A DNA stretch of 32,000 nucleotides. Source: Nostoc punctiforme PCC 73102 (GTDB lineage Bacteria > Cyanobacteriota > Cyanobacteriia > Cyanobacteriales > Nostocaceae). Under the pieces are notes generated by a model that made no database searches, was not told the DNA's origin, and saw nothing but the letters and a program-made list of their open reading frames with translations. The position numbers and the translations under genes are program-made. This document shows, in pieces, positions 72 through 32,000 of this stretch. Each line of letters starts with the position of its first letter. Within the stretch, counting starts at the first letter, position 1. The stretch is taken from the NCBI RefSeq assembly GCF_000020025.1, contig NC_010628.1:4260001-4292000 (forward strand). Direction: 5' to 3'.

Positions 72-1043
72 CTAGTCAAGCCCAAAAATGGCACGCGGTT
101 TGTATGGCTGCTCTAGCAAGGTGCGCTCGTCGTTATCCATAACCAAATCTAATGTAGCTACAGCTTCTTCTAGGTGCTCTATCTTTGTGGCACCAATAAT
201 GGGAGCAGTAACACTTGGTTGGTGTAGAAGCCAAGCTAGAGAAATCTGAGCAGCAGATACACCGCGTTGCTTTGCTATATTCATAACTCGGTCAACTATT
301 TCAAAATCAAACTCTTCATAGTCGAGTTGATAATCGGTTCTAGCACGAATAGTCTTAGCAGGACTATGCCGAGGCTGATTACCAGCTAGAAAGCCTCGTG
401 CAATAGGACTCCACGGAATCACCGCGATGCCCTCAGTTTGACACAACGGCAGCATCTCTCGCTCTTCTTCGCGGTAAATCAAGTTGTAAAGATTCTGCAT
501 GGAAACAAAACGAGTCCAACCATGCATATCAGCCAAGTAAAGCGCTTTAGCAAACTGCCAAGCGTACATGCTAGAAGCCCCAATGTAACGAGCCTTACCT
601 GCCTTTACAATATCATGCAGTGCCGCAAGAGTTTCCTCAATCGGTGTCTCGTAGTCCCAGCGATGAATCTGATAAATATCTACATAATCTGTCTGTAATC
701 GTCGTAACGAGGCATCGATACTGTTCATGATGTGCTTACGAGACAAGCCTTTGTCATTTGGACTATCCCCCATCGGATAGTAAACCTTGGTGGCAATAAC
801 AACCTGCTCCCTTTTGGCAAAGTCCTTGAGCGATCGGCCAAGGATTTGTTCGCTAACTCCCTGCGAGTACATATCAGCAGTGTCAAAAAAATTAATTCCC
901 AACTCTAGGGCTTTTTGGATGAACGGACGACTCGTTTCTTCTGGAAGTATCCATTCTTCCCATTGAGGACTACCATAACTCAGAGTGCCGAGGCACAAAC
1001 GCGAAACTTTCAATCCAGTTTTACCAAAATTGACATATTTCAT
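72..1043 (-). CDS. aldo/keto reductase family oxidoreductase
   Basis: The track ORF 72..1082 opens on a TTG. The in-frame ATG at 1041-1043 gives the family-typical N-terminus MKYVNFGKTGLKVSRLCLGT. AKR catalytic tetrad context is visible: FDTADMYS (Asp, Tyr), VIATKV (Lys), IYQIHRWD (His). The start could instead be 1082. Confidence 0.85.
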   Translation of the reverse strand: MKYVNFGKTGLKVSRLCLGTLSYGSPQWEEWILPEETSRPFIQKALELGINFFDTADMYSQGVSEQILGRSLKDFAKREQVVIATKVYYPMGDSPNDKGLSRKHIMNSIDASLRRLQTDYVDIYQIHRWDYETPIEETLAALHDIVKAGKARYIGASSMYAWQFAKALYLADMHGWTRFVSMQNLYNLIYREEEREMLPLCQTEGIAVIPWSPIARGFLAGNQPRHSPAKTIRARTDYQLDYEEFDFEIVDRVMNIAKQRGVSAAQISLAWLLHQPSVTAPIIGATKIEHLEEAVATLDLVMDNDERTLLEQPYKPRAIFGLD

Positions 1044-1153
1044 ACGAGAAAAATGCGGAGTATTTGAGAAGATTTTGTCCAAGCATTGAACATTTATTTT
1101 AAATAGGAATTTACTGATGAATTCATTTAATAAAATAAAGTTATCCTAACTTC

Positions 1154-1918
1154 TTAGCTAGTTTTACGGCAAACAAAGCAGACCATATCTGCTTCTGCGA
1201 TTAATGCTAAGTCAAGTTTAAAATCATATACACTAACTTCTGTGAAACCAACATTTTCTAAAGTTGACTGAACTTCAGCCCTAGAATAACCAATGACTGA
1301 AAAACTAGTATCTAGGCGTTTCCAGCAATCTATTTCTCTTAATTGAAAAGTTGTTACAAAAACTCGGCATTCTTTGGTTTCTGGATAATAAATATTTTTC
1401 ATACCCCAAGCATATTCATCTTTAATATCACCTAATATACGACCGTTCAAAGTAGAATTATATGCCTCTTCTAGACGTAAGTCAAATATAAATATACCGT
1501 TGCTATGAAGTGTACTATATACATTATGGAAAGTAGCTGTTAATTCTGACAAATTCAGAATGTGATTAAAACCCAAACCCATTGAAGAAACTGCATGGAA
1601 AATAGGCGGCAATTCAAAGAAGCGTACATCACCAAGAATCAATTTGCAATTAGGTGCATTCTGATGAGCATATTCCAACATTCTCTGGGAGCGATCAATT
1701 CCAGTTACCTGATAGCCTTTATTTAGCAGCCATTGTGACAGTTCCCCTGTGCCACAACAGAGGTCAAGGATACTCGCTCCTTCTGGAACGTAAGGTAATA
1801 GTAATTTTTCTAGGGTAGGCAAGGCTATTTTGTTGTAACTTGGCCCCAAAGCTTCGTTATATATTCGGGCAAATGGTTCATCAAATTTGTTATAGCTAGT
1901 TGCTGAAGACGAAGACAT
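1154..1918 (-). CDS. class I SAM-dependent methyltransferase
   Basis: 254-aa ORF with an ATG start. SAM-binding motif I is ILDLCCGTGELS, followed by VTGIDRS (acidic loop). Same strand as the synthetase genes and 82 nt downstream of the preceding gene. Confidence 0.85.
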   Translation of the reverse strand: MSSSSATSYNKFDEPFARIYNEALGPSYNKIALPTLEKLLLPYVPEGASILDLCCGTGELSQWLLNKGYQVTGIDRSQRMLEYAHQNAPNCKLILGDVRFFELPPIFHAVSSMGLGFNHILNLSELTATFHNVYSTLHSNGIFIFDLRLEEAYNSTLNGRILGDIKDEYAWGMKNIYYPETKECRVFVTTFQLREIDCWKRLDTSFSVIGYSRAEVQSTLENVGFTEVSVYDFKLDLALIAEADMVCFVCRKTS

Positions 1919-2000
1919 AAAAGGTTTTCCTTTGCTTCATATTTAATGATAAATAATGGTCTACTTGCGTTAATATGCAAGTTAAAGGTGAAACAATTTA

Positions 2001-2882
2001 TCAAAACTTAAGGTTGCTTAAAGTAGTAAAGACTTGCCGTCGGTTATCGGTAAAGGCTCCACGACCGTGTAAAAACCTTGAATTATCCATCATTACCAGA
2101 TCGCCTGCTTTCCAAGGTATCTTTTCTGTTAGCTTATCGAAGATTCTCTCTATTTCATCAGCGACTTCATCAGAAGCTCTTGAACCGTCATCAAAAATTG
2201 CTTCTTCTGTCCTTTTTTGATATACCCAAAAGTGGTTTGCAAATGCATTTTGATGATTATATTTGTTGTTTACTACAGATGAACAAGTATATTCTACAGA
2301 AACAGTTTTATCATCATTAAACTGATAACTTACACCATCAACACTGTCTAACCTTTGCTTGATATCATCTATAGTATTAGCATTTGAACCTATTATTCCT
2401 TTCAATATATCAACCGGAACATTTTTATAAGAAAACTTTAGTTGCTTGGAAAGAAATAACTGTTTCGATTCTTGACTCAGTTCCTCCCACACTCGGATAC
2501 CATCCCAAAATAAAGTTTCGCCTTCTTGTTCGGCTGGTACAGTACAGCAAAACCAAATAACATCAGGTCGAAAGGGAAAACAAGAATTTTCGCAATGAGG
2601 AATAAGACCATCCATCCCGCCATCTACAAAATTGACATACTTGTCAGAATCAATGCTGACTTTTGTAAAATCTATAATATGCTTCCCACTAAATTGTTCT
2701 GAAAAATCTTTCATCTGCTTGGGAGTTACTCCAAAATCTCGAAATAGAATAACTCCAGATGACTTGAATATCTCCATAGTCTCTGCTACAGAGAGGTCAA
2801 GAATATTTTGACAATGACTATTATATAGTATCTTTCCTGTGCTAGTGCCTAGTGGCTCTATTTTACCGATCATATCATTCAT
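2001..2882 (-). CDS. TauD/TfdA-family Fe(II)/2-oxoglutarate dioxygenase
   Basis: 293-aa ORF. HxE facial-triad motif (IPHCEN), distal FLHGRGAF (His/Arg), and the GVILFRDFGV motif shared with the ORF at 17000..18031. Confidence 0.8.
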   Translation of the reverse strand: MNDMIGKIEPLGTSTGKILYNSHCQNILDLSVAETMEIFKSSGVILFRDFGVTPKQMKDFSEQFSGKHIIDFTKVSIDSDKYVNFVDGGMDGLIPHCENSCFPFRPDVIWFCCTVPAEQEGETLFWDGIRVWEELSQESKQLFLSKQLKFSYKNVPVDILKGIIGSNANTIDDIKQRLDSVDGVSYQFNDDKTVSVEYTCSSVVNNKYNHQNAFANHFWVYQKRTEEAIFDDGSRASDEVADEIERIFDKLTEKIPWKAGDLVMMDNSRFLHGRGAFTDNRRQVFTTLSNLKF

Positions 2883-3099
2883 TTCTCCGTTTATTTAGGG
2901 AATTCATCTTCACTTTGCCAATTATAGATATCGCTTCCAGACTAAAATATATTCAATATGTAAAAATCAAATTCTTCAATTTTTGATAAATAATCAACAG
3001 TAGATTGATATGTTTAATAACCATGTTATGAAATATAAGTTAATAATTATTGTTCGCGAGTCAACGAACCTTATTTGTTAACAATTCATTTTGTTTATT

Positions 3100-6000
3100 T
3101 TAAATTTGATTCATAAAAATATTCAAATACTCTAAAATAATCTGAATATGAGGCTTGGTAATGATTGTGTAATGATTGCTAGGGATAGTAATAATCTCTA
3201 TTGGCTTGCCTGAAAGCCCACCCCAAATATAAGTTGGATTAGAAAATTCATTAGATACTTCATCACTAGCTTGAAAGTATAAAATTTTGTTTGGATAAAC
3301 TTGTGGTGTATAACTTTGTAGAGCTAGTACGTTACTCTTAAAAACCTTCAGAAGACAACGAAGCTGTTCTAGTTCAAAATCCAAAGGCAAGAGATTAACT
3401 ATCCTTGCTTGCTCTAAAAAATAGTTCAGTTGCTCGTCTAGGGTCATCAGTGCCTGAAGTTGCTCAACCGAACCCGATAGGTTTTTCCCAGCAGACTGTG
3501 CCATATCTGTGGCAAAATCGACTAATATTTTGACATCGTTGTAGTCATCAATCTCTGCAATTTCTTTGCTGTTAACTGGTGCTGGGCTGTCTAGCATAGC
3601 AAGCATGGCAACTCGATCGCCATTTCTTAGTAACTGAGTTGCCATTTCAAAAGCGACAATACCGCCCATAGACCAACCTCCAAGAAAATATGGGCCATTC
3701 GGCTGAATCTCTCGTAGTGCTTCAATATACTTAGCTGCCATATCTTCTATCCGGGTATAGGGCTGCGATTCCCCATTCAAACCTAGTGCTTGCAGCCCAT
3801 AGAATGGTTGATCTGAATCCAAATGAAGTGACAATTCGTAGTAGCAAAGAATATTCCCACCTACTGGATGCACAAAAAATAGAGGTGGCTTGGAACCATG
3901 AGGTTGAATTGCAACTAAGGGGGATGAGGTGCGATAATCAGCCCGATCGTGCAGAATATTCGCTAACTGTTTGATAGTTGGACTCTGGAAAATAGCAGAT
4001 AATTGAATATTTTTACCAAACTGATTATTAATTTTTGCTATTAAGTGTACAGCTAAAAGCGAGTGTCCCCCAAGCTCAAAAAAGTCGTCGTTGATGCCTA
4101 AGCTCTCAATACAAAGAATTTCTTGCCAGATATTAGCAAGTGTTTGTTCAGTATGAGTGCGAGGAGCCACATAATCATTTCCTAGATTAGGGCGGGGATG
4201 GAGTATCTTAGCAAGACTTGTTGAAGCTAATTTCTTTTTTATGTCTCCAGCAAAAGAGGTCTGCTCAACATCGCTTAAAGATTTGAGCTTTAGCCATTGG
4301 TCGAACCTAGCTTGTAAATCTCCTGCAGAGAGAACAACTTGAGTTATTTTATCACTTGTTAAAATACGTTGAAAAGCTTTTATGCCTTCTTCTGGTGTGA
4401 TAAATAATTCAGCCAATGTTGTTCTACTAGCTGTGTTTTTTTCTTCTCCAAGTTCCCAGCGCTCGCAATTAACACTAATCCAGGGGACAGGATTTATTTG
4501 ATTTTGTTTTTGAGCAAAAATATCCATAAAAATGTTTGCTGCTGAATAAGCAACTGATCTTAACCCTCCCAAAATGGATGATGAAGAAGATATCAACAGA
4601 TAAAAATCAAGTTGTCTCCCCTGCAAAACTTTTTCTAGTACGAATAGTCCATTAGCTTTTGATTGAAAGTGACACTGATAATCAGTTTGAGAAGTTTCTT
4701 GAATAGATTTTAGGGACTTGTCATCCACGATCTCTACTGCGTAAATAACACCATGTATGTCACCAAAATGCTCCGTAACAAAGGCGATCGCTCTTTGCAT
4801 CTGTTCAAGGTTGGTTACATCTGCGCTCAAAACTAAAACCTCGGCTCCTAACTCCTCTAATGCTTGCAATTTCCTGATTTTGCAGCTCACCTCATCCTGG
4901 CGATCGTGAGTGTTCAGCCACCCGAACCACTCATCTTTCTCCGGGAGATTCTTCTGTCCAATCAAGACGAGTTTTGCCTGCACTGTCTGAGCTAGAGACT
5001 CCGCTAGGATCGGTCCAATATTTCCCAGGCCCTCAGTAATTAAGTAGACTCCGCCGTTGCGTAATCTTGATGTTTTTCCCTTAGATTCTGACAATCGTAC
5101 TGGCTCAAAAGTTTGCACCCAACGATTCAGGCCACGGTAGGCTATAACCAACTTCGAGGATTTAGTTTGTAGCTCGTCCAGTAAATAATCTACAAGTTTC
5201 TCCTCTTGCCAACTTCCTGGCTTTGGAAGAGCAATATCAATGCTACGACAGCTGATGTTTGAGTATTCTTGAGGAATGACTTTAACTGGCCCAAGTACAG
5301 TCGCTTTCTCTGGACACAACATTTCTTCTGCTGTGACTGACTGTATGTTGTTGGAGACAACTGTAATTTTAAACTTATCAGTCCAATTCTGTTTTCCAAG
5401 TGCCTGGGTGAGAAACAACAGGCTGTAGAATCCCAAATATTGAGCGCTATCAAACCACTCGAGTTCTGATTCTGCGTGGTAGTCTGGTGTAACACTCCAT
5501 AAATGAATAATTGTCTTGGGGATCTTGTTTTGTACTAAAAGTTCATTGAGTAAGGCATCATAATCATTACTTTGTCGAGGATTGAGGGTATATAAGCACT
5601 CGCTTACTTTGGAGAATTCTGATCCGATCTGAATTGCGATCGCATCTTGTCCCTGCTGTTCGAGTCGTTTTACCATTTGAGAACCCAAGCCGCACTCATC
5701 GGTAAACACAAGGGTACAGAACTTTTGCTCTGCCAAGTCTCCTTTACCGAGCAGTTCTGGAGGTGCAGATTGCTTCCATAAAGGTAGATAAAACCAGTCA
5801 GCGATATCCGGTTTTTTATTCAATGACACTTCCGTAGCGTGGACATCGCGTGGCTGTGCTTGTGGCGAAATCCAGTAACGCTGACGCTCAAATGGATATG
5901 TTGGTAGGGGGATGCGATAACGCTGTTCGTTGGCGTAAAAGCCAGACCAATCTACTTGAAATCCAAAAAGCCAGAGGCGACCCAAAGTATTGAGTAGAAA

Positions 6001-8548: not shown

Positions 8549-8622
8549 CGAACTACAGAGACGCAGAGAACGCGGAGAGAGAAGAAATAGAGATTTTCAC
8601 AAATGATTTAGGACTGCTATAT
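8549..8622 (-). repeat. MITE-like small dispersed repeat (copy A, inverted relative to copy C)
   Basis: The reverse complement reads tatagcagtcctaaatcatttgtgaaaatctctatttcttctctctccgcgttctctgcgtctctgtagttcgatt. It aligns with copy C except for a ~29-nt block present only in C. Confidence 0.75.
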
Positions 8623-8624
8623 TA

Positions 8625-11600
8625 CTATCGTTGATTTCTTTTTTCTCTTCGTCTTTGACCACGAGAAATACTTTGTTTCGCAGAAAGTATTTCATTCTGT
8701 TCAGGGCAGACAATATTAGTAAGGGAGTTTATGGTTGGTGCTTCGTAAATACTCTCTATAGGAATGTCAAGGTCTAATTTTTTGTTTAACAAAGAAATAG
8801 CTTGAAGGGCTGTTAGCGAATCACCTCCTAACTCAAAAAAATTGTCGTGGATGTTAACGTTGTCAAAACCAAAAAGTTCTTGCCAAATGTCAGCAATAGT
8901 TTTCTCAATCTTTTTACGGGAAGCGGCATAAGTATTTCCCAAAGCATTAGGTATTTGCTCAATCAGGTTTTCAAACAACTCATCAGCAGACTTTACATTT
9001 GAAGTAACCGAGAGCGATTCAGTAGCTAAGTTTAAAGATGAGCCAGTCAAAGTTTGATTGGCGCTCGTCTGTCCGCTATTTTTTGAAGTCTGCTCAGATG
9101 TAAAAAATCCCCCTGCTTGCATTTCAACTACGCTTTCTTTGACCGCAGAAATTACTTGTTCAACGTCTTTATCAGTGTGAGCTGTAGATAGATAAAGAGT
9201 GCGTCCTTCCCAGACATAAATCCCTTTTGCAAGCAAGTGATAGAAAAATAAATTACCAAGTTGAGTCTGGCAATTAAAACGGAAGAGAGAACCAAAATTA
9301 ACGACTCGAATTGGTACTTGCTTTTGTTCAAAGTAACTATTGAGAGTCTCGGCTAATTGGGTTGTCCGTTGATTTAACTCCTCCTGAAGTTTGGAACCAC
9401 TGTTCTTAATGTGATTGAGTGTAGCCCAGGCGACACCCATGATGAGAGGATGCTTGAAAAAAGTACCAGCGAAAAAAGTTGTTTTCACCTGGGGGTAAGA
9501 CTCATCTCCATAGTTCCACATACCTCCGTCTAATGCATCCATAAAAACAGCTTTGCCAGCCACTACCCCAATAGGGATACCAGCAGCAACAGCTTTACCA
9601 TAAGTTGTGATATCTGCTTGAATACCCCATAAAGCCTGAACGCCACCTGGGTGCATCCGAAAGCCAGTAACCACCTCATCGAAAATTAAAACAGTTCCAG
9701 TTTCTTGAGTTAATTGTCTGAGTTGAAATAGAAACTCTTTAGGCTGAAAATCTGGGCGACTGCTTTGTATCGGCTCAACTAAAATTGCTGCTAAGTTATG
9801 AGCATTGTCTTTAAGAATATTGAGAGATTCGGGAGTACCATACTCCAGCACCATCACATCCTCAGCTAAGGATGATGGAATACCTGAAGTCATCGGGACA
9901 GAACGTAGCGTTCCGTCGTTGGTTCTTACTCCTTTGACCAAAACTCCATCAGAACCACCGTGATAAGAACCAGCAAATAAAGCAATTTTTGAACGTCCTG
10001 TAACAGAACGTGCTATGCGTACAGCCGCCATCACTGCTTCTGTGCCATCGTTACAAAAAGCTGTCCGTTCCGCACCGGTTAACTCACAAATTAACTCAGC
10101 TAATTGACCTGCAAAACGCGATTGTGGGCCGTTTAGTATACCTTGCTTGCTTTGCTCTTGGATGGCTGCGATCGCAAAAGATGGCGAATGACCAAATAAA
10201 AGCGTACCAAACCCCATTGAAATGTCTACATATTCGTTGCCATCGACATCCCAGAGTCTAGCACCCTCTCCACGCTCTGCATGGATTGGATATATCATCT
10301 CCTTGATAAAGGGAAAGAACCCTGATACTGCCCTGCTATTGGCATGACAAGAACGATAAGCTTGGGTAAGCCTTTTAGATTCTTGGGTACGCTTGACAAA
10401 ATGTGCAATTAAAGAGTCTAGATGTCTCTGCTGGCGGGGACTCAACATCATCGATTCTTTCTCGATCTGTTGGGAAGCAGCTTTGGGTGTAGGATTAATT
10501 TTCCGGTCTTTGATTTGTTGCTCAGACTCTGCCTTAGTAAATGTAGACTGATTTCCACTAAACGCAGAGCCATTGGTTGAGGTTTGAGCAATTTGCCCAT
10601 CTTGATGAATAGCTCCCAATGAAGGCAAAACTTCTCTGGCTAAACTTCCCTGTGGTAATAAGTCTACCAGTTTAGACATAACCTGAAGATGCTGTGAAAT
10701 TATCTGTTCAATGGCTGTATTTGCTATAGGTTGGTTAACGATTTGCGTATCTGGAACTTTGATTGAGTTGGTTATGATATCTTCTGGTTGAGAAACAAGA
10801 ATTTCATTTTTGGGCGATAGATTGTCATCATTAGCTAAGATAGGTTCAATCCAGTATCTTTTTCGCTCAAAAGGATACGTTGGCAAGGGAATACGATGAC
10901 GTTCTTCATCGGCATAAAATTCTGACCAATCCACATTTATTCCCTCCAGCCAGAGTCTACCCAATGTATTTAGTAAAAACGCCACATCTGATTGTTGGTT
11001 CTGTGGATGTCTTAGTGAAGAAAGAATTACCTGCTGGGCCGCTTTTTGCTTGTTAGCTAAGGTACTTAATGTTCGCCCTGGGCCAACCTCTAAAAGAATT
11101 CGCTTTGGCTGTTGCAGTAATTCGGCGATCGCTTCGCTAAAACGTACTGTTTGGCGTAAATGCCTTGCCCAGTATTTCGGATCTGTTGCTTGTGCTGGGG
11201 TTATCCAAGTGCCGGTGACGTTAGATACAAAAGGAATTTTTGGAGAATTAAGGCTAATTTTGCTAACCTGTTCCTGGAATGGTAACAGAATCGAGTCCAT
11301 CATTGAGGAATGAAAAGCATGGGAAGTATGTAGACGATGACAGTCTACACCTTGGTCAATCAATCGTTTTTGTAAATCATCAACCGCTTCCTCCAATCCA
11401 GAAACTACGCACATATCTGGTGCATTGATTGCAGCCAAAGAGAGTTTTTTTCCTAGCATGGGTTGGATTTTTTTCTCTGGTAGTGAAACAGCCATCATTG
11501 TTCCCGATGGAAGCTGCTGCATCAGTTGTCCTCGGTTGGCTACGAGTATCAATGCTTCTTCTAAGGAGAACACACCAGCAATGCAGGCTGCGACATATTC

Positions 11601-16754: not shown

Positions 16755-16789
16755 ATTTATACCTCAGTGTTATAAGACTTTAGATTTTA

Positions 16790-16857
16790 TAGGACTTACG
16801 CAAAAACCCTCTTAAACTCTCATTCCTCAGTGACCTCAGTGTCCTCTGTGGTTCGTT
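16790..16857 (+). repeat. diverged member of the same repeat family (copy B1)
   Basis: tataggacttacgcaaaaaccctcttaaactctcattcctcagtgacctcagtgtcctctgtggttcgtt. It shares the tatag start and the ctcNgNgNcNtctgNNgttcgNtt end with copies A and C. Confidence 0.55.
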
Positions 16858-16934
16858 TTCCGTAATAATGCTTAATGGTGTATGAGGCAATACGGTTCAG
16901 TTAAGGCTAAAACTCTTTAACAAAGTCAATTTTT

Positions 16935-16990
16935 TAACGTAGACGCGGAGCGGCTTGCCGCAGGCTACCGCAGAGGAAACAGAGAGAAGA
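16935..16990 (-). repeat. repeat copy B2 (inverted; matches the GC-rich half of copy C)
   Basis: The reverse complement cttctctctgtttcctctgcggtagcctgcggcaagccgctccgcgtctacgtta aligns with copy C 31250-31312, with a few mismatches and one short indel. Confidence 0.75.
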
Positions 16991-16999
16991 AAAAAATGC

Positions 17000-25829: not shown

Positions 25830-25895
25830 GATTCTTTAAATCCTTTAGTATTTGCGAATAAACTTAAGCTAGTATTTGCTGGAGTTTATGAAGGA

Positions 25896-28800
25896 TTATT
25901 CCTTAACTCCTAGACTTTTAGTAATTGACTTTAGTTTTTGCAGACGTTTTTGCTGTTGAGCTTTTCCATCTTTAATCTTCTCAATTTTTACATCAGTTTT
26001 CTGAAGAGATAATGTGTGATTTTTGATTGTGGTAAAGCATTCTGCTAAAGAGCTTATGGTTGGATATCTAAACATATCGATCATCGATAAATCTGTTTGA
26101 AATATTTCACGTAACTTGCTATGAACCTTAACCATAAGTAATGAATGACCACCCAGTTCAAAGAAGTTGTCGTGAATGCCTATCTTCTCGATATTGAGAG
26201 CCTTTTGCCAAATAGTAGCGATAGTTTGTTCCATCTCAGTTTGGGGCATGACATAAGCATCTGACAAATTTGGGCGGATAGTTTCTGGTGCAGGTAGCGA
26301 TCGCCGATCCAACTTGCCGTTGGGCGTTAGCGGCAGAGCAGGGAGGAAGATAAAGGCAGAAGGCACCATATATTCTGGTAGCTTTTCTTTCAGGAATCGC
26401 TGTAAATCACCGATGGTAACAGCCTGTTTATCATCCAGGACTACATAGCCTACTAAACGCTTCTCACCATGACTTTCTTCAACAGCCTGGACTATTACTT
26501 CTCGGACTGCCTGATGTTTTCTCAGTGCCGTCTCAATCTCTCCTAACTCAATGCGGAAACCTCGAATTTTAACTTGGTGGTCAATGCGTCCTAAGTACTC
26601 AAGTTCGCCATTGGGCAAGTAACGGGCCAGATCGCCAGATTTGTATAAATAAGCATCAGTTACTTCGCTAAAGGGGTTGACAATGAACCGTTCAGCAGTT
26701 AATTCTGGGCGATTGAGATAACCACGAGTTACACCCGCACCACCAATGTAAAGTTCACCAGCAACCCCAATTGGAACTGGTTGCCGTTGTGAATCTAATA
26801 AGTATATTTGCAAGTCAGGAATACGATGCCCAATTAGGCTACCATTTCTTTGATTTAAATCCGCTATATTTATGGGGCGATAGGTTACGTGTACAGTCGT
26901 TTCTGTAATACCGTACATATTGACTAGTTGTGAGCCATCGCCGTGGCGCTCAAACCAAGGCTGCAAGCTATCAAGTTCCAGGGTCTCACCCCCAAAAATC
27001 ACAAGACGCAGAGCCAGCGTTCCAGTTTTACCTGCCGCTTCCTCCTCTGCATTCATTAGTTGCCGGAAGGCCGATGGAGTTTGATTGAGTACCGTTACCT
27101 GCTGAGTGCATAACAAGTTGTAGAAAGCCTCTGGCGACCTGCTAATCCAGTAAGGAACAACTACCAGCCGTCCCCCATAGAGAAGAGATCCCCAAATTTC
27201 CCAAACTGAGAAGTCAAATCCATAAGAGTGAAAATTTGTCCACACATCGCGATCGCTAAAGTTAAACCATGACTGTGTGGCGGTAAAGAGCCGAATAACG
27301 TTCTGATGATTGACTAAAACGCCTTTGGGTTTACCAGTAGAGCCGGAGGTGTAAATTACATAAGCTAAATTATTTGTAGTTACCTCCCTAACCGGATTAT
27401 CTACCCTTTCTTGACACCAAGCCTCACTGTTTTGGTTTAAGCAAACCACCTGCGCCTGATGCTCAGGTAAACCTTCGAGAAATTTATCCTCGGTTAACAA
27501 TACCGAAACCTGGGCATCTGACAGCATGAAGGCTAGACGCTCCTTGGGATAGGTAGGATCTAGAGGGACGTAAGCCCCACCAGCTTTGAGAATTCCCAAG
27601 ATACTCACAACCATATCTATTGAGCGATCCATAAAAATTCCCACCAGTACTTCTGGGCCTACGCCGAGCGAATTGCTACGCGACAGCTTCGCTGAACGCA
27701 AATAATGCGCCAGCTGATTAGCTCGCTGGTTCAGTTCCCGGTATGTTAACTGTTGGTCTTCAAAGATTACGGCAATGGCATCGGGCGATCGCTCCACTTG
27801 AACTTCAAATAACTCATGGATACAATACTCCCCAGAATAGTCAGTTTGAGTATTATTCCATTCCACCAACAACTGTTGTTGTTCTGTTTTCGTCAACACA
27901 GGCAATTGTGCAAGGGGCTGCTCTGGATTAGCAACAATACCTTCTAGTAAAGTTACGTAATGTTTGCTCCAACGCTGAATTGTCTGGCAGTCAAATAGAT
28001 CGGTATTATATTCCAGTTCTATTAGTAGTTCATTATCTGTCTGAAAAATATTTAAATTAAGATCAAACTTAGTAGCACTGGTAGAATTTTTAGCAACCTC
28101 AAATTCTTGCTTTAACGACTTTGACTCAAATTGAGCTTTGTCCAGATTAAACCCGGTGGTAAAGAGAGGGGTACGGCTAGGATCTCGCGGTAACTTTAAA
28201 TTTTCAATTAGTTTAATAAATGGATAAATTTGATACTCGTAAGCATCTAGCAATACCTGCTGGATTGCGCTCAAATACTCTGTGAATCCTGGGTTGCCAA
28301 TAACTTGGCTACGTATAGGCAATAGATTAACACAGTGACCAACAAGAGATTCTCCTGCGATCGCAGATTGTCCGGCTGAAGCAATACCAACAACGATATC
28401 TTGTTGATTCGTCAATCTTTGCAATAAAGTTATAAATGCTGTTAAAAGAATCGTAAATAAAGTATAACCACGTTGTCCGCTTAAATTTTTTAGAGCGTTA
28501 TACAATGTTGGATCAAGGATGAGATTTTCTCGCGCACCAGTGTAAGAAAAGATTGGTGGTCGAGGACGGTCAGTTGGCAATTCCAACACAGGCACTGAAC
28601 TCGAAAATTGACCTAACCAATAAGCTTCAGCTTTTGCCATCTCTGGACTCTGCTGCCTTTCTACTTGCCACAGAGCATACTCACTCCATTTCATCGGTTG
28701 CAGAAGTTGACTAGCAATACCTTGGCACTGTGCTGAATAAATTGCTGCTAGTTCTTGTAACAAAATACCAATCGACCAACCATCAGCAACAATGTGATGA

Positions 28801-31205
28801 TTCGTCAGAACCACAAGATGATAATTTTCCTCCAGCTTAACTATGTGGCAGCCTAGTAATGGCCCTTTTTCCAGATGGAAAATTTGTTGAGCTTCTCGTG
28901 CTAACAATTCCGATAGCTGTGCTTCTCGTTGACTTTTATCTAAAGTTGAAAAGTCGCTCACAGGAATGTCTATAGTTAAAGTGGAATGAATCAATTGCTC
29001 ATCCCCCTCTGGGCTAAAAGTAGTTCGCAGCGCTTCGTGACGATTGATAATTTCCTGAACCGCTTTACGTACTGCCAATAAATTGCAAGTTCCCCGTAGG
29101 TGGATAGTTCTCGATTCGTTATAGGCGCGGGAAACCTCATCTCCCATTTGTGCTAAAAACCACAATTCTTTTTGTGCTGCCGTCAGAGGAATTTTGAGCG
29201 TTGTTAAAATTGGGGCAGATGGTAATAATTCCCCTTGTTGCATTTCTACTACGCTTTCTTTAACTGCTCGAATTATATGTTCAATATCTGCATCAGTATG
29301 AGCCGTAGAAAGATAAAAGGTGCGTCCTTCCCAGACATAAACGCCTTTTTCTAGCAGATGGTAGAAAAACAACTGATTAAACTTGAGAGGAGATGAGCCT
29401 ATAAAACGAAACAACGAACCAAAATGAACTACTTGAATAGGAACTTGTCTTTTTTCGAAGTAACTATTAATAGTTTGGGCTAATTTCGCTGTTTTTTGAG
29501 ATAACTCTTGCTGTAACTTCGGGCCACTATTCTTAATATGGTTGAGTGCAGCCCAAGCCGCAGCCATTACCAAAGGATGTTTGAAAAAAGTACCCGCAAA
29601 CATGGTGGTTTCTGCTTGAGGATAAGATTCATCTCCATAGTTCCACATCCCACCATCAAGCGTATCCATCAAAGCTGCTTTGCCAGCTATCACCCCAATT
29701 GGCATCCCAGCAGCAACAGTTTTCCCATAAGTAGTCAAATCTGCTTGAATATCCCATAATCCTTGAATTCCACCTGGGTGCATCCGAAAGCCGGTAATCA
29801 CTTCATCAAAAATTAATACGGTTCCTGTTGCTTGAGTTAGTTGTCTGAGCTGGAGCAAAAACTCTTTGGGTTGCAAATCTGGCCGACTACTTTGTATCGG
29901 CTCTACCAATACTGCTGCCAGTTCGTGAGCATGAGTTTTGAGAATCTCTAAGGATTCAGGTTGGCCATAGTCGAGTACAATAACATCATCAGCAATGTAA
30001 GATGGAATACCTATAGCTCTAGGGATAGAACGCCGCGTTCCTTCGCTAGTTGTGACTCCTCGCACCAATATCCCATCATAGATACCGTGATAAGAGCCAG
30101 TAAATAAAGCAATCTTGGAGCGTCCTGTAGTAGCGCGTGCTAGGCGTATTGCTCCCATCACGGCTTCTGAACCATCGTTACAAAAAGCTGCCCGTTCTGC
30201 GCCTGTTAGTTGACAAATTAACTCCGCAACCTGACCGGCAAGACGCGATTGTGGGCCGTGCAGTATACCTTGGTTTATTTGTTCTTGAATCGCATCAATG
30301 ACAAACGAAGGCGAATGACCAAATAAAAGCGCACCAAACCCCATAGAAATGTCTACGTATTCGTTGCCATCAACATCCCAAAGCGTGGCTCCCTCTCCAC
30401 GCTGTCCGTGGATGGGATATAACATCTCTTTAATTGAGGGCAGGAACCCTGTTACCGCCCTGCTATTAGCATGGTAAGAACGGTAAGTTTGCGAGAGTCG
30501 CTTAGATTCTGAAGTACGCTTAACAAAACGTGCAATTAAATAATCTAAATGTTTTTGTTGATGAGGAGTTAACAGAGTCTTTGATTCTGAGTCAAGCTGT
30601 TGGATATTTGCCGGAATTTGAGGCTCAATTATTTGGTTTATGAGTTGTTGATTAAACTTAGCTTGAATCGATGATGGACTTTCTTGAAAACCAGATTTAT
30701 CCTGAACAGGAGCAGATGGTATTGCTGCTTGTAAAGGTAATCTTTTCTTAGATGAACCTGCTTTTTGCAAAATATCTAGCTGTTTAGACATTAGCTGAAG
30801 CTGCTGTTCTATTACCTGTTCCAGTATTGTACCTGTTACAGATTTTTCATTTTCTTGCTCAAACTCTTGTGTATCTGAAGCCTTAACAGCTAGCCTTGAT
30901 TCCTTGATATCTTCTGGAGGTATTTCTTGCACTATGTGCGTTACTAAGGCATGAATTGTTGATAAATCTTCAAGTAATAAACGAAAAGGAATATTAATAC
31001 TTAACTGTTTTTGAATGGCACGGTTTATTTGCAGCAATATCAGAGAGTCAACACCCATTTCTAGAAAACGAGTATGAATATCTATTGCAGATGACTTGAC
31101 TCCCAATGACTCACTAACAATGTCCTTGAGGCTTAATACTAATTTCTGATATTGCAAATCTTTCTTCATAATATTTTTCAAAAACTTATTTATTACTGAA
31201 TGCAT
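25896..31205 (-). CDS. hybrid PKS/NRPS: ACP-AMT-C-A(Thr)-PCP
   Basis: 1769 aa. ACP nt ~30921-31163 (EMGVDS, Ser54). PLP aminotransferase nt ~29241-30575 (TTYGKTVAAG, Lys495). C nt ~27906-29192 (NHHIVADGWSIG). A nt ~26301-27833 (YTSGSTGKPKG, hand-extracted code DFWNIGMVHK). PCP nt ~26031-26243 (ELGGHS, Ser1688). Confidence 0.95.
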   Translation of the reverse strand: MHSVINKFLKNIMKKDLQYQKLVLSLKDIVSESLGVKSSAIDIHTRFLEMGVDSLILLQINRAIQKQLSINIPFRLLLEDLSTIHALVTHIVQEIPPEDIKESRLAVKASDTQEFEQENEKSVTGTILEQVIEQQLQLMSKQLDILQKAGSSKKRLPLQAAIPSAPVQDKSGFQESPSSIQAKFNQQLINQIIEPQIPANIQQLDSESKTLLTPHQQKHLDYLIARFVKRTSESKRLSQTYRSYHANSRAVTGFLPSIKEMLYPIHGQRGEGATLWDVDGNEYVDISMGFGALLFGHSPSFVIDAIQEQINQGILHGPQSRLAGQVAELICQLTGAERAAFCNDGSEAVMGAIRLARATTGRSKIALFTGSYHGIYDGILVRGVTTSEGTRRSIPRAIGIPSYIADDVIVLDYGQPESLEILKTHAHELAAVLVEPIQSSRPDLQPKEFLLQLRQLTQATGTVLIFDEVITGFRMHPGGIQGLWDIQADLTTYGKTVAAGMPIGVIAGKAALMDTLDGGMWNYGDESYPQAETTMFAGTFFKHPLVMAAAWAALNHIKNSGPKLQQELSQKTAKLAQTINSYFEKRQVPIQVVHFGSLFRFIGSSPLKFNQLFFYHLLEKGVYVWEGRTFYLSTAHTDADIEHIIRAVKESVVEMQQGELLPSAPILTTLKIPLTAAQKELWFLAQMGDEVSRAYNESRTIHLRGTCNLLAVRKAVQEIINRHEALRTTFSPEGDEQLIHSTLTIDIPVSDFSTLDKSQREAQLSELLAREAQQIFHLEKGPLLGCHIVKLEENYHLVVLTNHHIVADGWSIGILLQELAAIYSAQCQGIASQLLQPMKWSEYALWQVERQQSPEMAKAEAYWLGQFSSSVPVLELPTDRPRPPIFSYTGARENLILDPTLYNALKNLSGQRGYTLFTILLTAFITLLQRLTNQQDIVVGIASAGQSAIAGESLVGHCVNLLPIRSQVIGNPGFTEYLSAIQQVLLDAYEYQIYPFIKLIENLKLPRDPSRTPLFTTGFNLDKAQFESKSLKQEFEVAKNSTSATKFDLNLNIFQTDNELLIELEYNTDLFDCQTIQRWSKHYVTLLEGIVANPEQPLAQLPVLTKTEQQQLLVEWNNTQTDYSGEYCIHELFEVQVERSPDAIAVIFEDQQLTYRELNQRANQLAHYLRSAKLSRSNSLGVGPEVLVGIFMDRSIDMVVSILGILKAGGAYVPLDPTYPKERLAFMLSDAQVSVLLTEDKFLEGLPEHQAQVVCLNQNSEAWCQERVDNPVREVTTNNLAYVIYTSGSTGKPKGVLVNHQNVIRLFTATQSWFNFSDRDVWTNFHSYGFDFSVWEIWGSLLYGGRLVVVPYWISRSPEAFYNLLCTQQVTVLNQTPSAFRQLMNAEEEAAGKTGTLALRLVIFGGETLELDSLQPWFERHGDGSQLVNMYGITETTVHVTYRPINIADLNQRNGSLIGHRIPDLQIYLLDSQRQPVPIGVAGELYIGGAGVTRGYLNRPELTAERFIVNPFSEVTDAYLYKSGDLARYLPNGELEYLGRIDHQVKIRGFRIELGEIETALRKHQAVREVIVQAVEESHGEKRLVGYVVLDDKQAVTIGDLQRFLKEKLPEYMVPSAFIFLPALPLTPNGKLDRRSLPAPETIRPNLSDAYVMPQTEMEQTIATIWQKALNIEKIGIHDNFFELGGHSLLMVKVHSKLREIFQTDLSMIDMFRYPTISSLAECFTTIKNHTLSLQKTDVKIEKIKDGKAQQQKRLQKLKSITKSLGVKE
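27669..27692 (-). repeat. 24-nt in-frame, hairpin-capable insertion in the Thr A domain
   Basis: The sense strand gcgaagctgtcgcgtagcaattcg encodes AKLSRSNS, interrupting the usual HYLxxLGVxxE spacing (compare HYLQRLGVEKE in the other A domain). The flanks give an agcgaa/ttcgct 6-bp stem. GC-rich relative to its surroundings. Confidence 0.45.
29241..30575 (-). other. PLP-dependent aminotransferase (AMT) domain within the ACP-AMT-C-A-PCP protein
   Basis: The region from LWDVDGNEYVDISMGFG to YGKTVAAGMPIG to VWEGRTFYLSTAHT. Class-III aminotransferase fold with the PLP lysine retained. Confidence 0.85.
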
Positions 31206-31210
31206 TTATA

Positions 31211-31312
31211 TATAGCAGTTCTAAATCATTCGTGAAACCTCTCGTTATTCTTCTCTCTGTGTACTCTGCGTCTCTGCGGTAGCCTGCGGCAAGGCGCTCT
31301 GCGTCTACGTTA
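31211..31312 (+). repeat. MITE-like small dispersed repeat, longest copy (copy C)
   Basis: tatagcagttctaaatcattcgtgaaacctctcgttattcttctctctgtgtactctgcgtctctgcggtagcctgcggcaaggcgctctgcgtctacgtta. It is related to 8549-8622 (inverted), 16790-16857 (direct) and 16935-16990 (inverted). Confidence 0.75.
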
Positions 31313-31344
31313 AAAAATAATTTCTATAAATAAGATAATATTGC

Positions 31345-31360
31345 TATAGCAGTCCTAAAT
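31345..31360 (+). repeat. 16-nt direct repeat of the copy-C terminus
   Basis: tatagcagtcctaaat matches tatagcagttctaaat at 31211-31226 in 15 of 16 positions. The two bracket the GC-rich core. Confidence 0.6.
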
Positions 31361-31413
31361 AAATTTATAAAATATTTGCTTTTTTCTTGATGCTATTAGC
31401 ATATATATAATTG

Positions 31414-32000
31414 CTACATATCTTTTTCTAAGATATCTAACTGCTGAAACATAACAGCAATTTGTTTGTTGACGATCTTTTGAAGAAAATTATCATATTT
31501 TTCACCTCTACTACCTAGTTTAAGGATGTTGTTTTGATGAGAATCAAAAAATAAATCTTGTGATTCATCTTCCAGATGATTAATCTGTTTATTCTGTAAT
31601 TGATTCAACTCATTAACTTTAGTAGACTCAACCCAGTATCTTTTACGCTCAAATGGGTAAGTTGGTAAAGGTAGCCGATAACGTTTTTCATGAGCATACA
31701 AACTTGACCAATCAACTTGTATACCGTACAACCACAAATTTCCCAAAGTATTCAGCAAGAATGCAACATCAGATTGTTGATTATGAGGATGACCTATGGA
31801 GCAAAGCACCAATTGTCCCTGCGACTGTTGCTTAGTTAAAGTACTTAAAGTGCAACCAAACCCAACTTCTAAAAAAATCCGATTTGGCTGTTTGCACAAT
31901 TCACTAATGCCATCGGCAAAGCGTACTGATGACCGCAAATGTTTAACCCAATAACTGTTATCTGTTGCTTCTTTTGTAGTAATCCAAGTGCCAGTTACGT
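31414..32000 (-). CDS. type I PKS, 3' end only (C-terminal part of AT plus post-AT linker); 5' end lies outside the window
   Basis: The reading frame stays open to nt 32000 and translates as VTGTWITTKEATDNSYWVKHLRSSVRFADG..., so the track start at 31938 is a TTG artefact. It is homologous to the AT C-termini of the other PKS genes (SDVAFLLNTLGNLWL, LPTYPFERKRYW). It ends 208 nt upstream of the gene that starts with the ACP. Confidence 0.85.
   Translation of the reverse strand, partial: VTGTWITTKEATDNSYWVKHLRSSVRFADGISELCKQPNRIFLEVGFGCTLSTLTKQQSQGQLVLCSIGHPHNQQSDVAFLLNTLGNLWLYGIQVDWSSLYAHEKRYRLPLPTYPFERKRYWVESTKVNELNQLQNKQINHLEDESQDLFFDSHQNNILKLGSRGEKYDNFLQKIVNKQIAVMFQQLDILEKDM

What the first reader, a model, noticed from the sequence alone, without database searches (positions are those of the whole stretch)
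72..32000. Co-linear hybrid PKS/NRPS assembly line that I cannot assign to a characterised pathway
Eleven same-strand genes are separated by gaps of 9-354 nt, plus one 14-nt overlap. Reading them co-linearly predicts the following chain. A beta-amino acyl starter portion comes from KS-AT / ACP-AMT. It is condensed to Thr, then extended by KS-AT-cMT-KR-ACP to a 4-amino-3-hydroxy-2-methyl unit. An amino acid that is probably side-chain hydroxylated is added next. The chain is extended and transaminated again by KS-AT-AMT-CP, extended and ketoreduced by KS-AT-KR-ACP, and released by the TE. All three complete ATs carry GHSxGE and HAFH (malonyl type), and all KS domains retain Cys/His/His. Individual pieces recall MycA (iturin family), McyE and BlmVIII logic, but I do not recognise the combination. 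The loading end lies beyond nt 32000.
Basis: partly seen in the sequence, partly recalled or inferred. Interest (0 to 1): 0.75.

Follow-up and report, generated by a model that had tools for sequence, protein, structure and literature searches.

The report
Known orphan Nostoc siderophore gene cluster
The window is the last 32 kb of "pks4", a roughly 70-kb peptide/polyketide gene cluster of the model cyanobacterium Nostoc punctiforme PCC 73102 that is already published as a cryptic iron-carrier (siderophore) cluster but whose product has never been determined.

Summary
Eleven minus-strand genes have the stated gaps and domain strings, and every catalytic motif I checked is intact.

The source is identified. 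Three window proteins are residue-for-residue GenBank proteins of Nostoc punctiforme PCC 73102. The genes are Npun_R3422 to Npun_R3432, part of the published "pks4" cluster (Npun_R3414-3453). The literature calls pks4 a cryptic siderophore cluster with an adjacent TonB-dependent receptor. It is induced under iron competition, and its product is unknown.

- KS-AT/ACP-AMT is not a starter. About 38 kb of assembly line lies upstream: a fatty acyl-AMP ligase (FAAL) start and three further hydroxylase cassettes.
- The stand-alone C, the TauD and the C*-A-T protein form the beta-hydroxylase/interface-domain cassette of peptide siderophores. They are 43-49% identical to their counterparts in the cyanochelin B cluster.
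- The hydroxylated residue is predicted to be histidine (code DSASIAEVWK, 9 of 10 to a His code).

A PvdQ/CcsQ-like acylase, an MbtH protein and a type II thioesterase lie just past the window's low end.

No characterised pathway has this module order. The unusual feature is a unit repeated three times: a beta-hydroxy amino acid, a malonyl extension, then transamination.

The locus is already known and its chemistry is open. Interest is moderate to low.

The parts
31414..32000 (-). 3' end (last 194 codons plus stop) of the KS-AT gene Npun_R3432. The full gene encodes 968 aa.
   Evidence: The ORF runs off the window. The full gene is seen in L001, which differs from the window at 1 of 7497 nt. 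There it has KS Cys/His/His, GHSIGE and HAFH.
25896..31205 (-). Npun_R3431 (ACC81842.1), 1769 aa: ACP (aa 28-98) - AMT (265-626) - C (671-1113, HHIVADG) - A (1133-1631, code DFWNIGMVHK = Thr) - T (1660-1723).
   Evidence: Pfam; A-domain code; motifs; exact match to the GenBank protein.
19950..25829 (-). Npun_R3430, 1959 aa: KS-AT-cMT-KR-ACP. It extends Thr with malonate, C-methylates and ketoreduces.
   Evidence: Pfam; motifs TACSTS, HGTGT, NIGHL, GHSIGE, HAFH, LEIGGGQG and LGGDSL.
18018..19595 (-). Npun_R3429, 525 aa: stand-alone catalytic condensation domain (HHIIADG). It is the split form of the C-TauD fusion seen in Npun_R3435.
   Evidence: Pfam E=2e-116; translation; 47% identical to the C part of the C-TauD fusion; 49% identical to C domains of the cyanochelin B cluster.
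17000..18031 (-). Npun_R3428 (ACC81839.1), 343 aa: Fe(II)/2-oxoglutarate TauD-family beta-hydroxylase. It overlaps the C gene by 14 nt.
   Evidence: Pfam E=5e-44; HNEH...H..R motif; 48% identical to the stand-alone TauD of the cyanochelin B cluster; exact GenBank match.
13515..16754 (-). Npun_R3427, 1079 aa: interface (non-catalytic C-like, LPALCADS) - A (code DSASIAEVWK, His-like) - T.
   Evidence: Pfam; translation; A-domain code, conserved in the UO1 and Tolypothrix orthologues; 9 of 10 to the His code DSALIAEVWK.
8625..13505 (-). Npun_R3426 (ACC81837.1), 1626 aa: KS-AT-AMT-ACP. It extends beta-OH-His with malonate and transaminates the beta-keto group.
   Evidence: Pfam. The AMT matches the MycA aminotransferase domain structure 6KFM at E=6e-144. 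Exact GenBank match. Orthologues at 71-97% identity in Nostocales.
3100..8529 (-). Npun_R3425, 1809 aa: KS-AT-KR-ACP-TE, the last extension, ketoreduction and release.
   Evidence: Pfam; motifs including GWSMGG and the KR Lys/Tyr/Asn. The orthologue in N. punctiforme UO1 is split by a transposase.
2001..2882 (-). Npun_R3424, 293 aa: divergent TauD-family dioxygenase, a tailoring enzyme of unknown substrate.
   Evidence: Pfam E=1e-33. Only 21% identical to R3428 but 48% identical to a second copy near the start of the cluster. HxE...H...R motif present.
1154..1918 (-). Npun_R3423, 254 aa: class I SAM methyltransferase, paralogous to Npun_R3434.
   Evidence: Pfam; 44% identical to the methyltransferase between C-TauD and the Asp module; no NCBIfam model above its cut-off.
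72..1082 (-). Npun_R3422: aldo/keto reductase. The mechanical ORF is 336 aa from TTG, but other records call a 323-aa product from a downstream ATG.
   Evidence: Pfam E=1e-80; the 323-aa call is seen in L172.

Best explanation
The window is Npun_R3422 to Npun_R3432 of Nostoc punctiforme PCC 73102. This is the last six modules and the tailoring end of the ~70-kb 'pks4' NRPS/PKS cluster (Npun_R3414-3453), an orphan cluster most likely making an N-acylated peptide-polyketide siderophore.

Proposed course (order inferred from co-linearity):
1. A chain built upstream arrives at KS-AT (R3432) and ACP-AMT (R3431). The upstream line is FAAL-ACP-C, three C/TauD/interface-A-T cassettes for beta-hydroxy-Asn-like and beta-hydroxy-Asp residues, one PKS-plus-aminotransferase step, and an A-less C-T module. 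The Asp-derived thioester is extended by malonate and its beta-keto group is transaminated, as in MycA.
2. C-A-T of R3431 adds Thr.
3. R3430 extends Thr to a 4-amino-3,5-dihydroxy-2-methylhexanoyl unit.
4. The stand-alone C (R3429) condenses this onto His loaded on R3427. The non-catalytic interface domain of R3427 recruits the TauD hydroxylase R3428, giving beta-hydroxy-His.
5. R3426 extends and transaminates again. R3425 extends and ketoreduces, and its TE releases the chain by hydrolysis or possibly delta-lactam formation.
6. R3424 (dioxygenase), R3423 (methyltransferase) and R3422 (reductase) tailor the product at unknown positions.
7. Just downstream, MbtH, a type II TE and a PvdQ/CcsQ-like acylase follow. 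The acylase would remove the fatty acyl group during maturation.

Iron is expected to be bound by alpha-hydroxy-carboxylate and hydroxy-imidazole groups.
For: Identity of the locus.
- Exact-sequence hits of three window proteins to ACC81837.1, ACC81839.1 and ACC81842.1 of N. punctiforme PCC 73102. Flanking proteins run in consecutive accession order.
- The gene-by-gene product list for Npun_R3425-3452 in PMC7660261 matches my domain map.

Function from the literature.
[quoted passage not shown] Both were up-regulated together with the iron-limitation marker flavodoxin.
- PMC7660261 reports the genes up 2-13 fold in an alkane-overproducing strain and states that the product is unknown.

Sequence evidence.
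- Domains and intact motifs.
- A-domain codes are Thr, His-like and Asp. The Asp code is identical to both Asp modules of the cyanochelin B cluster, whose beta-OH-Asp residues were shown by NMR.
- The interface motif LP(A/S)LCAD is shared with the cyanochelin B modules.
- Cassette proteins are 43-57% identical to the cyanochelin B cluster.
- The AMT matches the MycA AMT structure at E=6e-144.

Cluster ends.
- Start: FAAL-ACP-C.
- End: MbtH, type II TE and an Ntn acylase with a sub-threshold PvdQ match. Such acylases sit in 22 of 31 cyanochelin-like clusters.

Conservation. The 3' half is conserved in Nostoc, Tolypothrix, Brasilonema, Hassallia, Rhizonema and Iphinoe.
Against: - No product has been isolated. 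Every chemical step is inferred from domain order and homology.
- The His call rests on a 9-of-10 code match only.
- The hydroxylase R3428 is not closer to a known His-specific clade. Its nearest paralogue (63%) serves an Asn-like module.
- Methyltransferases next to the cassettes could cap hydroxyl, carboxyl or amine groups and weaken chelation.
- Published induction at very high cell density and by signalling lactones is not typical siderophore regulation.
- One upstream module (C-T in R3435) has no A domain, so strict co-linearity may fail.
- I did not see the TonB receptor sequence myself.
Confidence: 0.72

Rival explanations
1. The product is not an iron carrier. It is a bioactive or signalling lipopeptide-polyketide, for example a protease inhibitor built on the statine-like Thr unit. 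The acylase would then act as a prodrug-activating or resistance enzyme.
For: - The 4-amino-3-hydroxy-2-methyl acid unit resembles statine-type inhibitors (my own knowledge).
- pks4 is induced at ultra-high cell density in a patterned subset of cells and by nostoclide plus nostovalerolactone.
- Three or four methyltransferases could mask the chelating groups.
Against: - Four beta-hydroxylase/interface cassettes are homologous to those of a proven siderophore cluster.
- Asp and His codes sit at those cassettes.
- The literature places a TonB-dependent receptor next to the cluster and reports co-induction with flavodoxin under iron competition.
- The acylase belongs to a type mostly associated with siderophore clusters.
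Confidence: 0.15
2. The assembly line is not read co-linearly as one chain. It either yields two products from sub-clusters or uses modules out of order or iteratively, so the predicted backbone is wrong.
For: - An A-less C-T module in R3435.
- A stand-alone aminotransferase and hydroxymalonyl-type extender genes upstream.
- Related clusters swap modules freely. Tolypothrix has KS-AT-KR-ACP where this cluster has KS-AT/ACP-AMT, and other strains have a KS-AT-AMT-ACP-TE ending.
Against: - All genes are on one strand with short gaps.
- There is one FAAL start and one TE end.
- Each C domain follows a carrier domain in gene order.
- Characterised cyanochelin clusters are reported to be co-linear.
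Confidence: 0.1
3. The cluster is a silent or decaying relic that makes nothing in this strain.
For: - It is classed as cryptic or orphan.
- The orthologue of the TE gene in N. punctiforme UO1 is split by a transposase.
- Locus tags R3443 and R3444 carry no protein accession. Two small ORFs without Pfam hits lie there.
- A transposase flanks the acylase.
Against: - Every ORF in the window is intact, with all catalytic residues.
- Transcripts of 19 genes and proteins of the cluster were detected and regulated.
Confidence: 0.05

Closest known systems
Cyanochelin biosynthetic clusters (cyanochelin B, Leptolyngbya sp. NIES-3755 plasmid 2, AP017310.1; cyanochelin C, Myxacorys)
   Same: - FAAL start, one-direction co-linear NRPS/PKS genes, and an Ntn acylase in many members.
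- C + TauD + interface-A-T cassettes for beta-hydroxy-Asp.
- C-TauD is 57% identical, I-A(Asp)-T 48-49%, TauD 48%.
- The Asp code DLTKIGHVGK and the LP(A/S)LCAD interface motif are identical.
   Different: - Characterised cyanochelins have no transaminating PKS modules, no His cassette and no Thr + cMT/KR unit. They have heterocycle-forming modules that I did not see here.
- Cyanochelin B carries a thioester-reductase (TD) domain and a C-terminal ethanolamine. pks4 ends in a PKS KR-ACP-TE.
- pks4 has four cassettes, three of them followed by PKS plus aminotransferase.
Mycosubtilin/iturin synthase subunit A (MycA) beta-keto transamination module
   Same: A KS-AT...ACP-AMT arrangement followed by C-A-T. 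The AMT domain of R3426 matches the MycA AMT structure 6KFM at E=6e-144 over its full length, with the PLP lysine conserved.
   Different: - MycA aminates a beta-keto fatty acyl starter once, and the amine later closes the ring.
- Here the two window AMT modules act in mid-chain on amino-acid-derived beta-keto thioesters. The predicted result is 3,4-diamino acid units.
Integrated beta-hydroxylase/interface-domain systems of proteobacterial siderophores (IBH_Asp, IBH_His, TBH_Asp; Reitz et al. 2019, cited in PMC12971057)
   Same: A TauD-family hydroxylase is fused to or next to a C domain. It is followed by an NRPS that starts with a non-catalytic C-like domain and an Asp- or His-specific A domain.
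   Different: - The enzymes are cyanobacterial. The 2026 paper places the cyanochelin hydroxylases in separate clades (CyanoBH_Asp1 and CyanoBH_Asp2).
- I could not run those profile models.
- Beta-hydroxy-His has not been reported from a cyanobacterial siderophore in the papers I could search.
Pyoverdine maturation acylase PvdQ / cyanochelin C acylase CcsQ
   Same: A 707-aa penicillin-amidase-family protein sits at the end of a FAAL-initiated siderophore-type cluster.
   Different: - It scores only 261 bits against the PvdQ model, whose cut-off is 950.
- Its activity is untested.
- It lies outside the window.
Bleomycin BlmVIII module and beta-hydroxy-His (recalled, not compared by sequence)
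   Same: A KS-AT-cMT-KR-ACP module acts on an amino acid thioester, and a beta-hydroxy-His residue lies next to amine-rich ligands.
   Different: - The order differs: here it is Thr, then the PKS module, then His.
- No sequence comparison was possible with the tools.

Membership tests
Modular cis-AT type I PKS / NRPS hybrid assembly line | KS Cys-His-His, AT GHSxGE, carrier-domain Ser, C HHxxxDG, A-domain core motifs, TE GxSxG | tested here: met
   Pfam domains; motif scan.
Beta-hydroxylase/interface-domain cassette of peptide siderophores | A TauD-family Fe(II)/2-oxoglutarate enzyme fused to or adjoining a catalytic C domain | tested here: met
   R3429 (HHIIADG) overlaps R3428 (TauD, HxE...H...R) by 14 nt. 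The fused form is seen in R3435.
Beta-hydroxylase/interface-domain cassette of peptide siderophores | The next NRPS begins with a C-like domain that lacks the HHxxxDG catalytic motif | tested here: met
   R3427 has LPALCADS and R3433 has LPSLCADA. The same motif occurs in both Asp modules of the cyanochelin B cluster.
Beta-hydroxylase/interface-domain cassette of peptide siderophores | The A domain of that NRPS is specific for Asp or His | tested here: met
   R3433 has DLTKIGHVGK, identical to the cyanochelin B Asp modules. R3427 has DSASIAEVWK, 9 of 10 to the His code DSALIAEVWK. The His call is a prediction.
Beta-hydroxylase/interface-domain cassette of peptide siderophores | Hydroxylase falls in a siderophore-specific clade (IBH_Asp, IBH_His, TBH_Asp, CyanoBH_Asp1/2 profile models) | not testable with these tools
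   Those models are not in the libraries offered. I have only pairwise identity to the cyanochelin B TauDs, 45-48% for R3428 and 57% for the fused R3435 C-TauD.
Cyanochelin-like siderophore cluster | FAAL loading module | tested here: met
   A FAAL-ACP-C gene of 1178 aa lies at the start of the cluster in a strain ~99% identical at the nucleotide level. It appears as 'AMP-dependent synthetase and ligase' Npun_R3452.
Cyanochelin-like siderophore cluster | Siderophore-associated Ntn acylase in the cluster | tested here: inconclusive
   A penicillin-amidase-family gene lies four genes past the window's low end (ACC81829.1). Its PvdQ model score is below the cut-off, and it was not placed in the published acylase tree.
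Cyanochelin-like siderophore cluster | Adjacent TonB-dependent siderophore receptor and induction by iron limitation | not tested
   Taken from PMC11890772. I did not fetch the sequence of Npun_R3454.
Cyanochelin-like siderophore cluster | Product with two beta-OH-Asp residues that binds and photoreduces Fe(III) | not testable with these tools
   No product is known. Predicted residues are one Asp, two Asn-like and one His at hydroxylase cassettes.
MycA-type transaminating PKS module | Class III aminotransferase domain homologous to the MycA AMT, with the PLP lysine, inside a KS-AT module | tested here: met
   6KFM at E=6e-144; YGK lysine in both AMT domains; Pfam order.
MycA-type transaminating PKS module | Acts on the beta-keto fatty acyl starter of a lipopeptide | tested here: not met
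   Both window AMT modules follow NRPS modules (Asp, His) in mid-chain. A separate stand-alone AMT plus KS-AT-ACP pair lies nearer the FAAL start, after the first NRPS module in gene order.

The most novel reading that the evidence does not exclude
pks4 makes a structurally new metallophore class. Three beta-hydroxy amino acids (Asn-like, Asp, His) are each extended by malonate and transaminated, giving 3,4-diamino-5-hydroxy acid units. The resulting vicinal-diamine, imidazole and alpha-hydroxy-acid ligand set recalls the metal-binding end of bleomycin. It might bind Cu, Zn or Fe(II) as well as Fe(III). The molecule would be made as an N-acyl precursor and trimmed by the acylase.
Probability: 0.35. 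Interest if true: 0.65.

Novelty: already known. Interest (0 to 1): 0.33.

Why it matters
Very few cyanobacterial siderophores have solved structures, and recent genome mining flags the phylum as under-explored. pks4 sits in a genetically tractable model symbiont. It is conserved across several Nostocales genera and responds to iron competition with a heterotrophic partner.

If the predicted chemistry holds, solving the product would add a new chelating scaffold made of beta-hydroxy-His and repeated diamino-acid units. It would also supply a test case for the interface-domain hydroxylation model with a His substrate.

As a sequence finding, however, it re-discovers a published orphan cluster.

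Tried and rejected
- **Known products with AMT modules.** I considered puwainaphycin, microginin, nostophycin, anabaenolysin and anachelin. I rejected them from memory because none has Thr + cMT/KR, His or this module order. No sequence comparison was run.
- **Genome-collection scan with the upstream C-TauD fragment.** The best hit, Tolypothrix sp. VBCCA 56010 at 81%, is a related but different variant.
- **Homologue search with the same fragment.** It did not return the true 1356-aa protein. The best hits (76%) come from other cyanochelin-like clusters.
- **Metagenome scan with the upstream TauD.** Only hits of 68% identity or lower, which did not help extend the locus.
- **Plasmid collection search with the KS-AT-AMT-ACP protein.** No orthologue; the best was 44% in a Nostoc flagelliforme plasmid and 46% in Ralstonia.
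- **Galica et al. 2021, the primary cyanochelin paper.** It is not in the library, so I could not check whether pks4 is among its listed clusters.
- **Rfam scan of the window.** Nothing found.
- **Promoter/terminator scan of the 354-nt and 245-nt gaps.** Nothing above the shuffled background that I would interpret.
- **NCBIfam on the methyltransferases, the divergent TauD and the reductase.** No specific family above its cut-off, so their substrates stay open.
- **KR stereochemistry.** The first KR has neither the LDD motif nor the Trp motif, and the second has VDD. I make no stereochemical call.

Full report
**1. Observation**

All ORFs of at least 150 aa in the window are on the minus strand.

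In transcription order, Pfam assigns:
- the tail of a gene running off at nt 32000;
- ACP-AMT-C-A-T (31205-25896);
- KS-AT-cMT-KR-ACP (25829-19950);
- a stand-alone C (19595-18018);
- TauD (18031-17000);
- C-A-T (16754-13515);
- KS-AT-AMT-ACP (13505-8625);
- KS-AT-KR-ACP-TE (8529-3100);
- a second, divergent TauD (2882-2001);
- a class I methyltransferase (1918-1154);
- an aldo/keto reductase (1082-72).

Motif checks confirm:
- the KS Cys/His/His, GHSxGE and HAFH in the three complete ATs;
- all carrier serines, and the PLP lysine (YGK) in both AMT domains;
- the KR Lys/Tyr/Asn and the TE GWSMGG and His;
- the HxE...H...R iron/2-oxoglutarate motif in all three TauD proteins.

Nothing is frameshifted.

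**2. Where the window comes from**

Exact-sequence look-up shows three window proteins are identical to GenBank proteins of Nostoc punctiforme PCC 73102 (ATCC 29133). These are ACC81837.1 (KS-AT-AMT-ACP), ACC81839.1 (TauD) and ACC81842.1 (ACP-AMT-C-A-T). Flanking proteins recovered from near-identical contigs are ACC81829.1 and ACC81845-81848 and ACC81854.1. The accessions run in consecutive order, consistent with the gene order I see.

A published table of products for Npun_R3425-R3452 (PMC7660261) matches my domain map gene for gene. The window is therefore Npun_R3422 (reductase) to the 3' end of Npun_R3432 (KS-AT).

That paper calls the set the 'pks4' cluster and reports three things:
- 19 of its genes rose 2-13 fold in an alkane-overproducing strain;
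- a Npun_R3452-GFP reporter showed patterned expression and strong induction at very high density;
[quoted passage not shown] Both were up-regulated together with flavodoxin when a heterotroph competed for iron. PMC9324945 counts 16 orphan clusters in this strain and shows pks4 responding to nostoclide plus nostovalerolactone. A last search for pks4 with punctiforme found only these papers. Within the library I could search, the cluster is named and functionally predicted, but its chemistry is unsolved.

**3. What lies beyond the window**

Contigs carrying the exact window proteins, and a JGI genome about 99% identical at the nucleotide level, give the rest of the line. Upstream of nt 32000, in order:
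- FAAL-ACP-C (1178 aa, R3452);
- TauD, then interface-A-T (code DLTKIGEVGK, Asn-like by my reading of position 322);
- a glycosyltransferase;
- a divergent TauD (48% identical to R3424) and a methyltransferase;
- a stand-alone class III aminotransferase (55-56% identical to the window AMT domains) and KS-AT-ACP;
- two small ORFs without Pfam hits, at tags that carry no protein accession;
- 3-hydroxyacyl-CoA dehydrogenase, ACP, acyl-CoA dehydrogenase and a HAD/FkbH-like protein. This is a hydroxymalonyl/methoxymalonyl-ACP type set (my reading);
- C, TauD and interface-A-T-E (code DLTKIGEVCK);
- C-T-C-TauD, in which the C-T module has no A domain;
- a methyltransferase;
- interface-A-T (code DLTKIGHVGK, Asp);
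- KS-AT.

Past the low end of the window lie a 105-aa ORF, an MbtH protein, a type II thioesterase and a 707-aa penicillin-amidase-family acylase, then a transposase.

By gene positions in L180/L090, the real loading module lies about 38 kb beyond nt 32000.

**4. The hydroxylation cassette and the identity of the residue**

The stand-alone C (R3429) keeps HHIIADG. The C-like domain at the start of R3427 has LPALCADS in that position.

The same arrangement, a catalytic C, a TauD enzyme (fused or separate) and then an NRPS with a dead C-like domain, occurs four times in pks4. It is the arrangement described for siderophore beta-hydroxylases and their 'interface' domain (Reitz et al. 2019, as summarised in PMC12971057). 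In the cyanochelin clusters it corresponds to ccsH1/2, ccsH2/2 and ccsI.

I fetched the cyanochelin B cluster (AP017310.1) and compared it directly:
- the C-TauD fusion is 57% identical;
- I-A(Asp)-T is 48-49% identical;
- R3428 is 48% identical to the stand-alone TauD;
- R3427 is 43% identical to the Asp modules;
- the interface motif and the Asp code DLTKIGHVGK are the same in both clusters.

The R3427 A domain has the code DSASIAEVWK. This code is conserved in the orthologues of N. punctiforme UO1 and Tolypothrix sp. VBCCA 56010. [quoted passage not shown]

I therefore predict beta-hydroxy-His. This is a prediction from the code only. R3428's closest paralogue (63%) serves the Asn-like first module, so the hydroxylase itself does not single out His.

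**5. The PKS parts**

The R3426 AMT domain matches the solved aminotransferase domain of mycosubtilin synthase MycA (6KFM) at E=6e-144 over its full length. The two window AMT domains are 66% identical to each other. The four KS-AT units are 63-69% identical and show up as the long direct repeats. The modules therefore arose by duplication within the cluster.

The repeated unit is: a beta-hydroxy amino acid cassette, then malonyl extension, then transamination. It occurs after the first module and after the Asp and His modules.

Read co-linearly, the window part of the chain is:
- (Asp-derived 3,4-diamino acid) - Thr;
- extension to 4-amino-3,5-dihydroxy-2-methylhexanoate;
- beta-OH-His, extended and aminated;
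- a further extension and ketoreduction;
- release by the TE.

A delta-lactam with the new amine is chemically possible, but that is speculation. I make no stereochemical call for the KR domains.

**6. Mechanism and function**

Shown by sequence and literature:
- domain content and intact catalytic residues;
- A-domain codes;
- homology of the cassettes to a proven siderophore cluster;
- homology of the AMT to MycA;
- a FAAL start and an acylase at the end;
- published expression and iron-related regulation.

Inferred:
- co-linear use of the modules;
- hydroxylation on the carrier-bound residue;
- transamination of the beta-keto intermediates;
- the product backbone;
- removal of the acyl chain by the acylase, as for pyoverdine (PvdQ) and cyanochelin C (CcsQ);
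- iron binding through alpha-hydroxy-carboxylate and hydroxy-imidazole groups.

Open points:
- the substrates of R3424, R3423 and R3422;
- the methyltransferase next to the Asp cassette. It could make a methoxy-Asp, as recalled for the lipopeptide A54145, and that would weaken chelation;
- how the A-less module is loaded.

**7. Distribution**

KS-AT-AMT-ACP orthologues of 71-97% identity and the same length occur in Nostoc, Brasilonema, Tolypothrix, Hassallia, Rhizonema and Iphinoe.

The 3' half, from C through TauD, I-A(His)-T, KS-AT-AMT-ACP and KS-AT-KR-ACP-TE to the divergent TauD, is syntenic in N. punctiforme UO1. There a transposase splits the TE gene. It is also syntenic in Tolypothrix sp. 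VBCCA 56010, which carries extra JmjC/cupin, Asp/Arg-hydroxylase-family and methyltransferase genes and has a KR module in place of the first window AMT module.

Other strains end with KS-AT-AMT-ACP-TE. C-TauD homologues of 45-60% identity also occur in Acidobacteriota.

**8. Verdict**

The locus is not new. It is the published orphan pks4 cluster, already predicted to make a siderophore.

The feature of some interest is the thrice-repeated hydroxy-amino-acid / malonyl / transamination unit together with a His cassette. Neither occurs in the characterised cyanochelins.

Noticed in passing
window 16929-16975 and 31272-31318; also 8556-8628 and 31245-31384: Short dispersed repeats sit in three intergenic gaps: R3428/R3427, R3432/R3431 and R3426/R3425. 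A 47-nt stretch is 96% complementary between two of the gaps, and a TATAGCAGTCCTAAA-type motif recurs. They look like the very small mobile repeats reported for Nostoc genomes (recalled, not checked).
   Followed up: partly
window about 16774-17013 (gap between R3428 and R3427): This gap is 245 nt here but only 15 nt in N. punctiforme UO1. The alignment of the two strains breaks exactly there (L088 genes). The extra ~240 nt carries one of the dispersed repeats, so it is probably an insertion.
   Followed up: partly
L088 14983-22513 (N. punctiforme UO1): The orthologue of the KS-AT-KR-ACP-TE gene is split into KS-AT-KR (1436 aa) and ACP-TE (355 aa). A 473-aa DDE transposase and a 133-aa ORF lie between them. 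In that strain the last module is probably inactive.
   Followed up: no
L090 5915-9985 (Npun_R3435, upstream of the window): This 1356-aa protein reads C-T-C-TauD. Its first module has a catalytic C (HHILMDG) and a carrier Ser but no adenylation domain, and it follows an epimerisation domain. How this carrier is loaded is unexplained. The Tolypothrix counterpart has an A domain there.
   Followed up: partly
L180 13295-13932 (between KS-AT-ACP and the 3-hydroxyacyl-CoA dehydrogenase gene): Two small ORFs (78 and 85 aa) have no Pfam hit. They lie where locus tags Npun_R3443 and R3444 have no protein accession. By eye the first resembles the N-terminus of an FkbM-type methyltransferase. It may be a decayed O-methyltransferase of a methoxymalonyl-ACP gene set.
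   Followed up: partly
window 2001-2882 and 1154-1918; L180 6547-8404: The divergent TauD plus methyltransferase pair at the 3' end has a paralogous pair (48% and 42% identical) near the start of the cluster, next to a glycosyltransferase. The pair also follows the TE gene in Tolypothrix. Its substrate is unknown.
   Followed up: partly
window 3100-8529 (KR of Npun_R3425, aa ~1160-1175): The NADPH-binding loop reads ITEGLGNIG, where the sister KR of R3430 has ITGGLGGVG. GxGxxG is kept and the Lys/Tyr/Asn residues are present, so the KR is probably active, though the loop is unusual.
   Followed up: no
window 72-1082: The mechanical ORF of the aldo/keto reductase starts at a TTG (336 aa). Gene calls in other records give 323 aa from the ATG 13 codons downstream, which would widen the gap to the methyltransferase gene to 110 nt.
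   Followed up: no
loci L013, L016, L020-L023, L028, L030 and others: C-TauD fusion homologues of 45-60% identity occur in Acidobacteriota (Pyrinomonadaceae, Blastocatellia) and a few other phyla. The cyanochelin C preprint notes likewise that the nearest non-cyanobacterial acylases are acidobacterial. This may reflect exchange of such clusters between the phyla.
   Followed up: no
proteins P0143-P0151 and P0163: A variant with the thioesterase fused directly after the transaminating module (KS-AT-AMT-ACP-TE, 1849-1953 aa) occurs in Nostoc sp. NIES-4103, Tolypothrix, Anabaenopsis circularis NIES-21 and a Nostocales strain. These relatives would release a beta-amino acid terminus.
   Followed up: no
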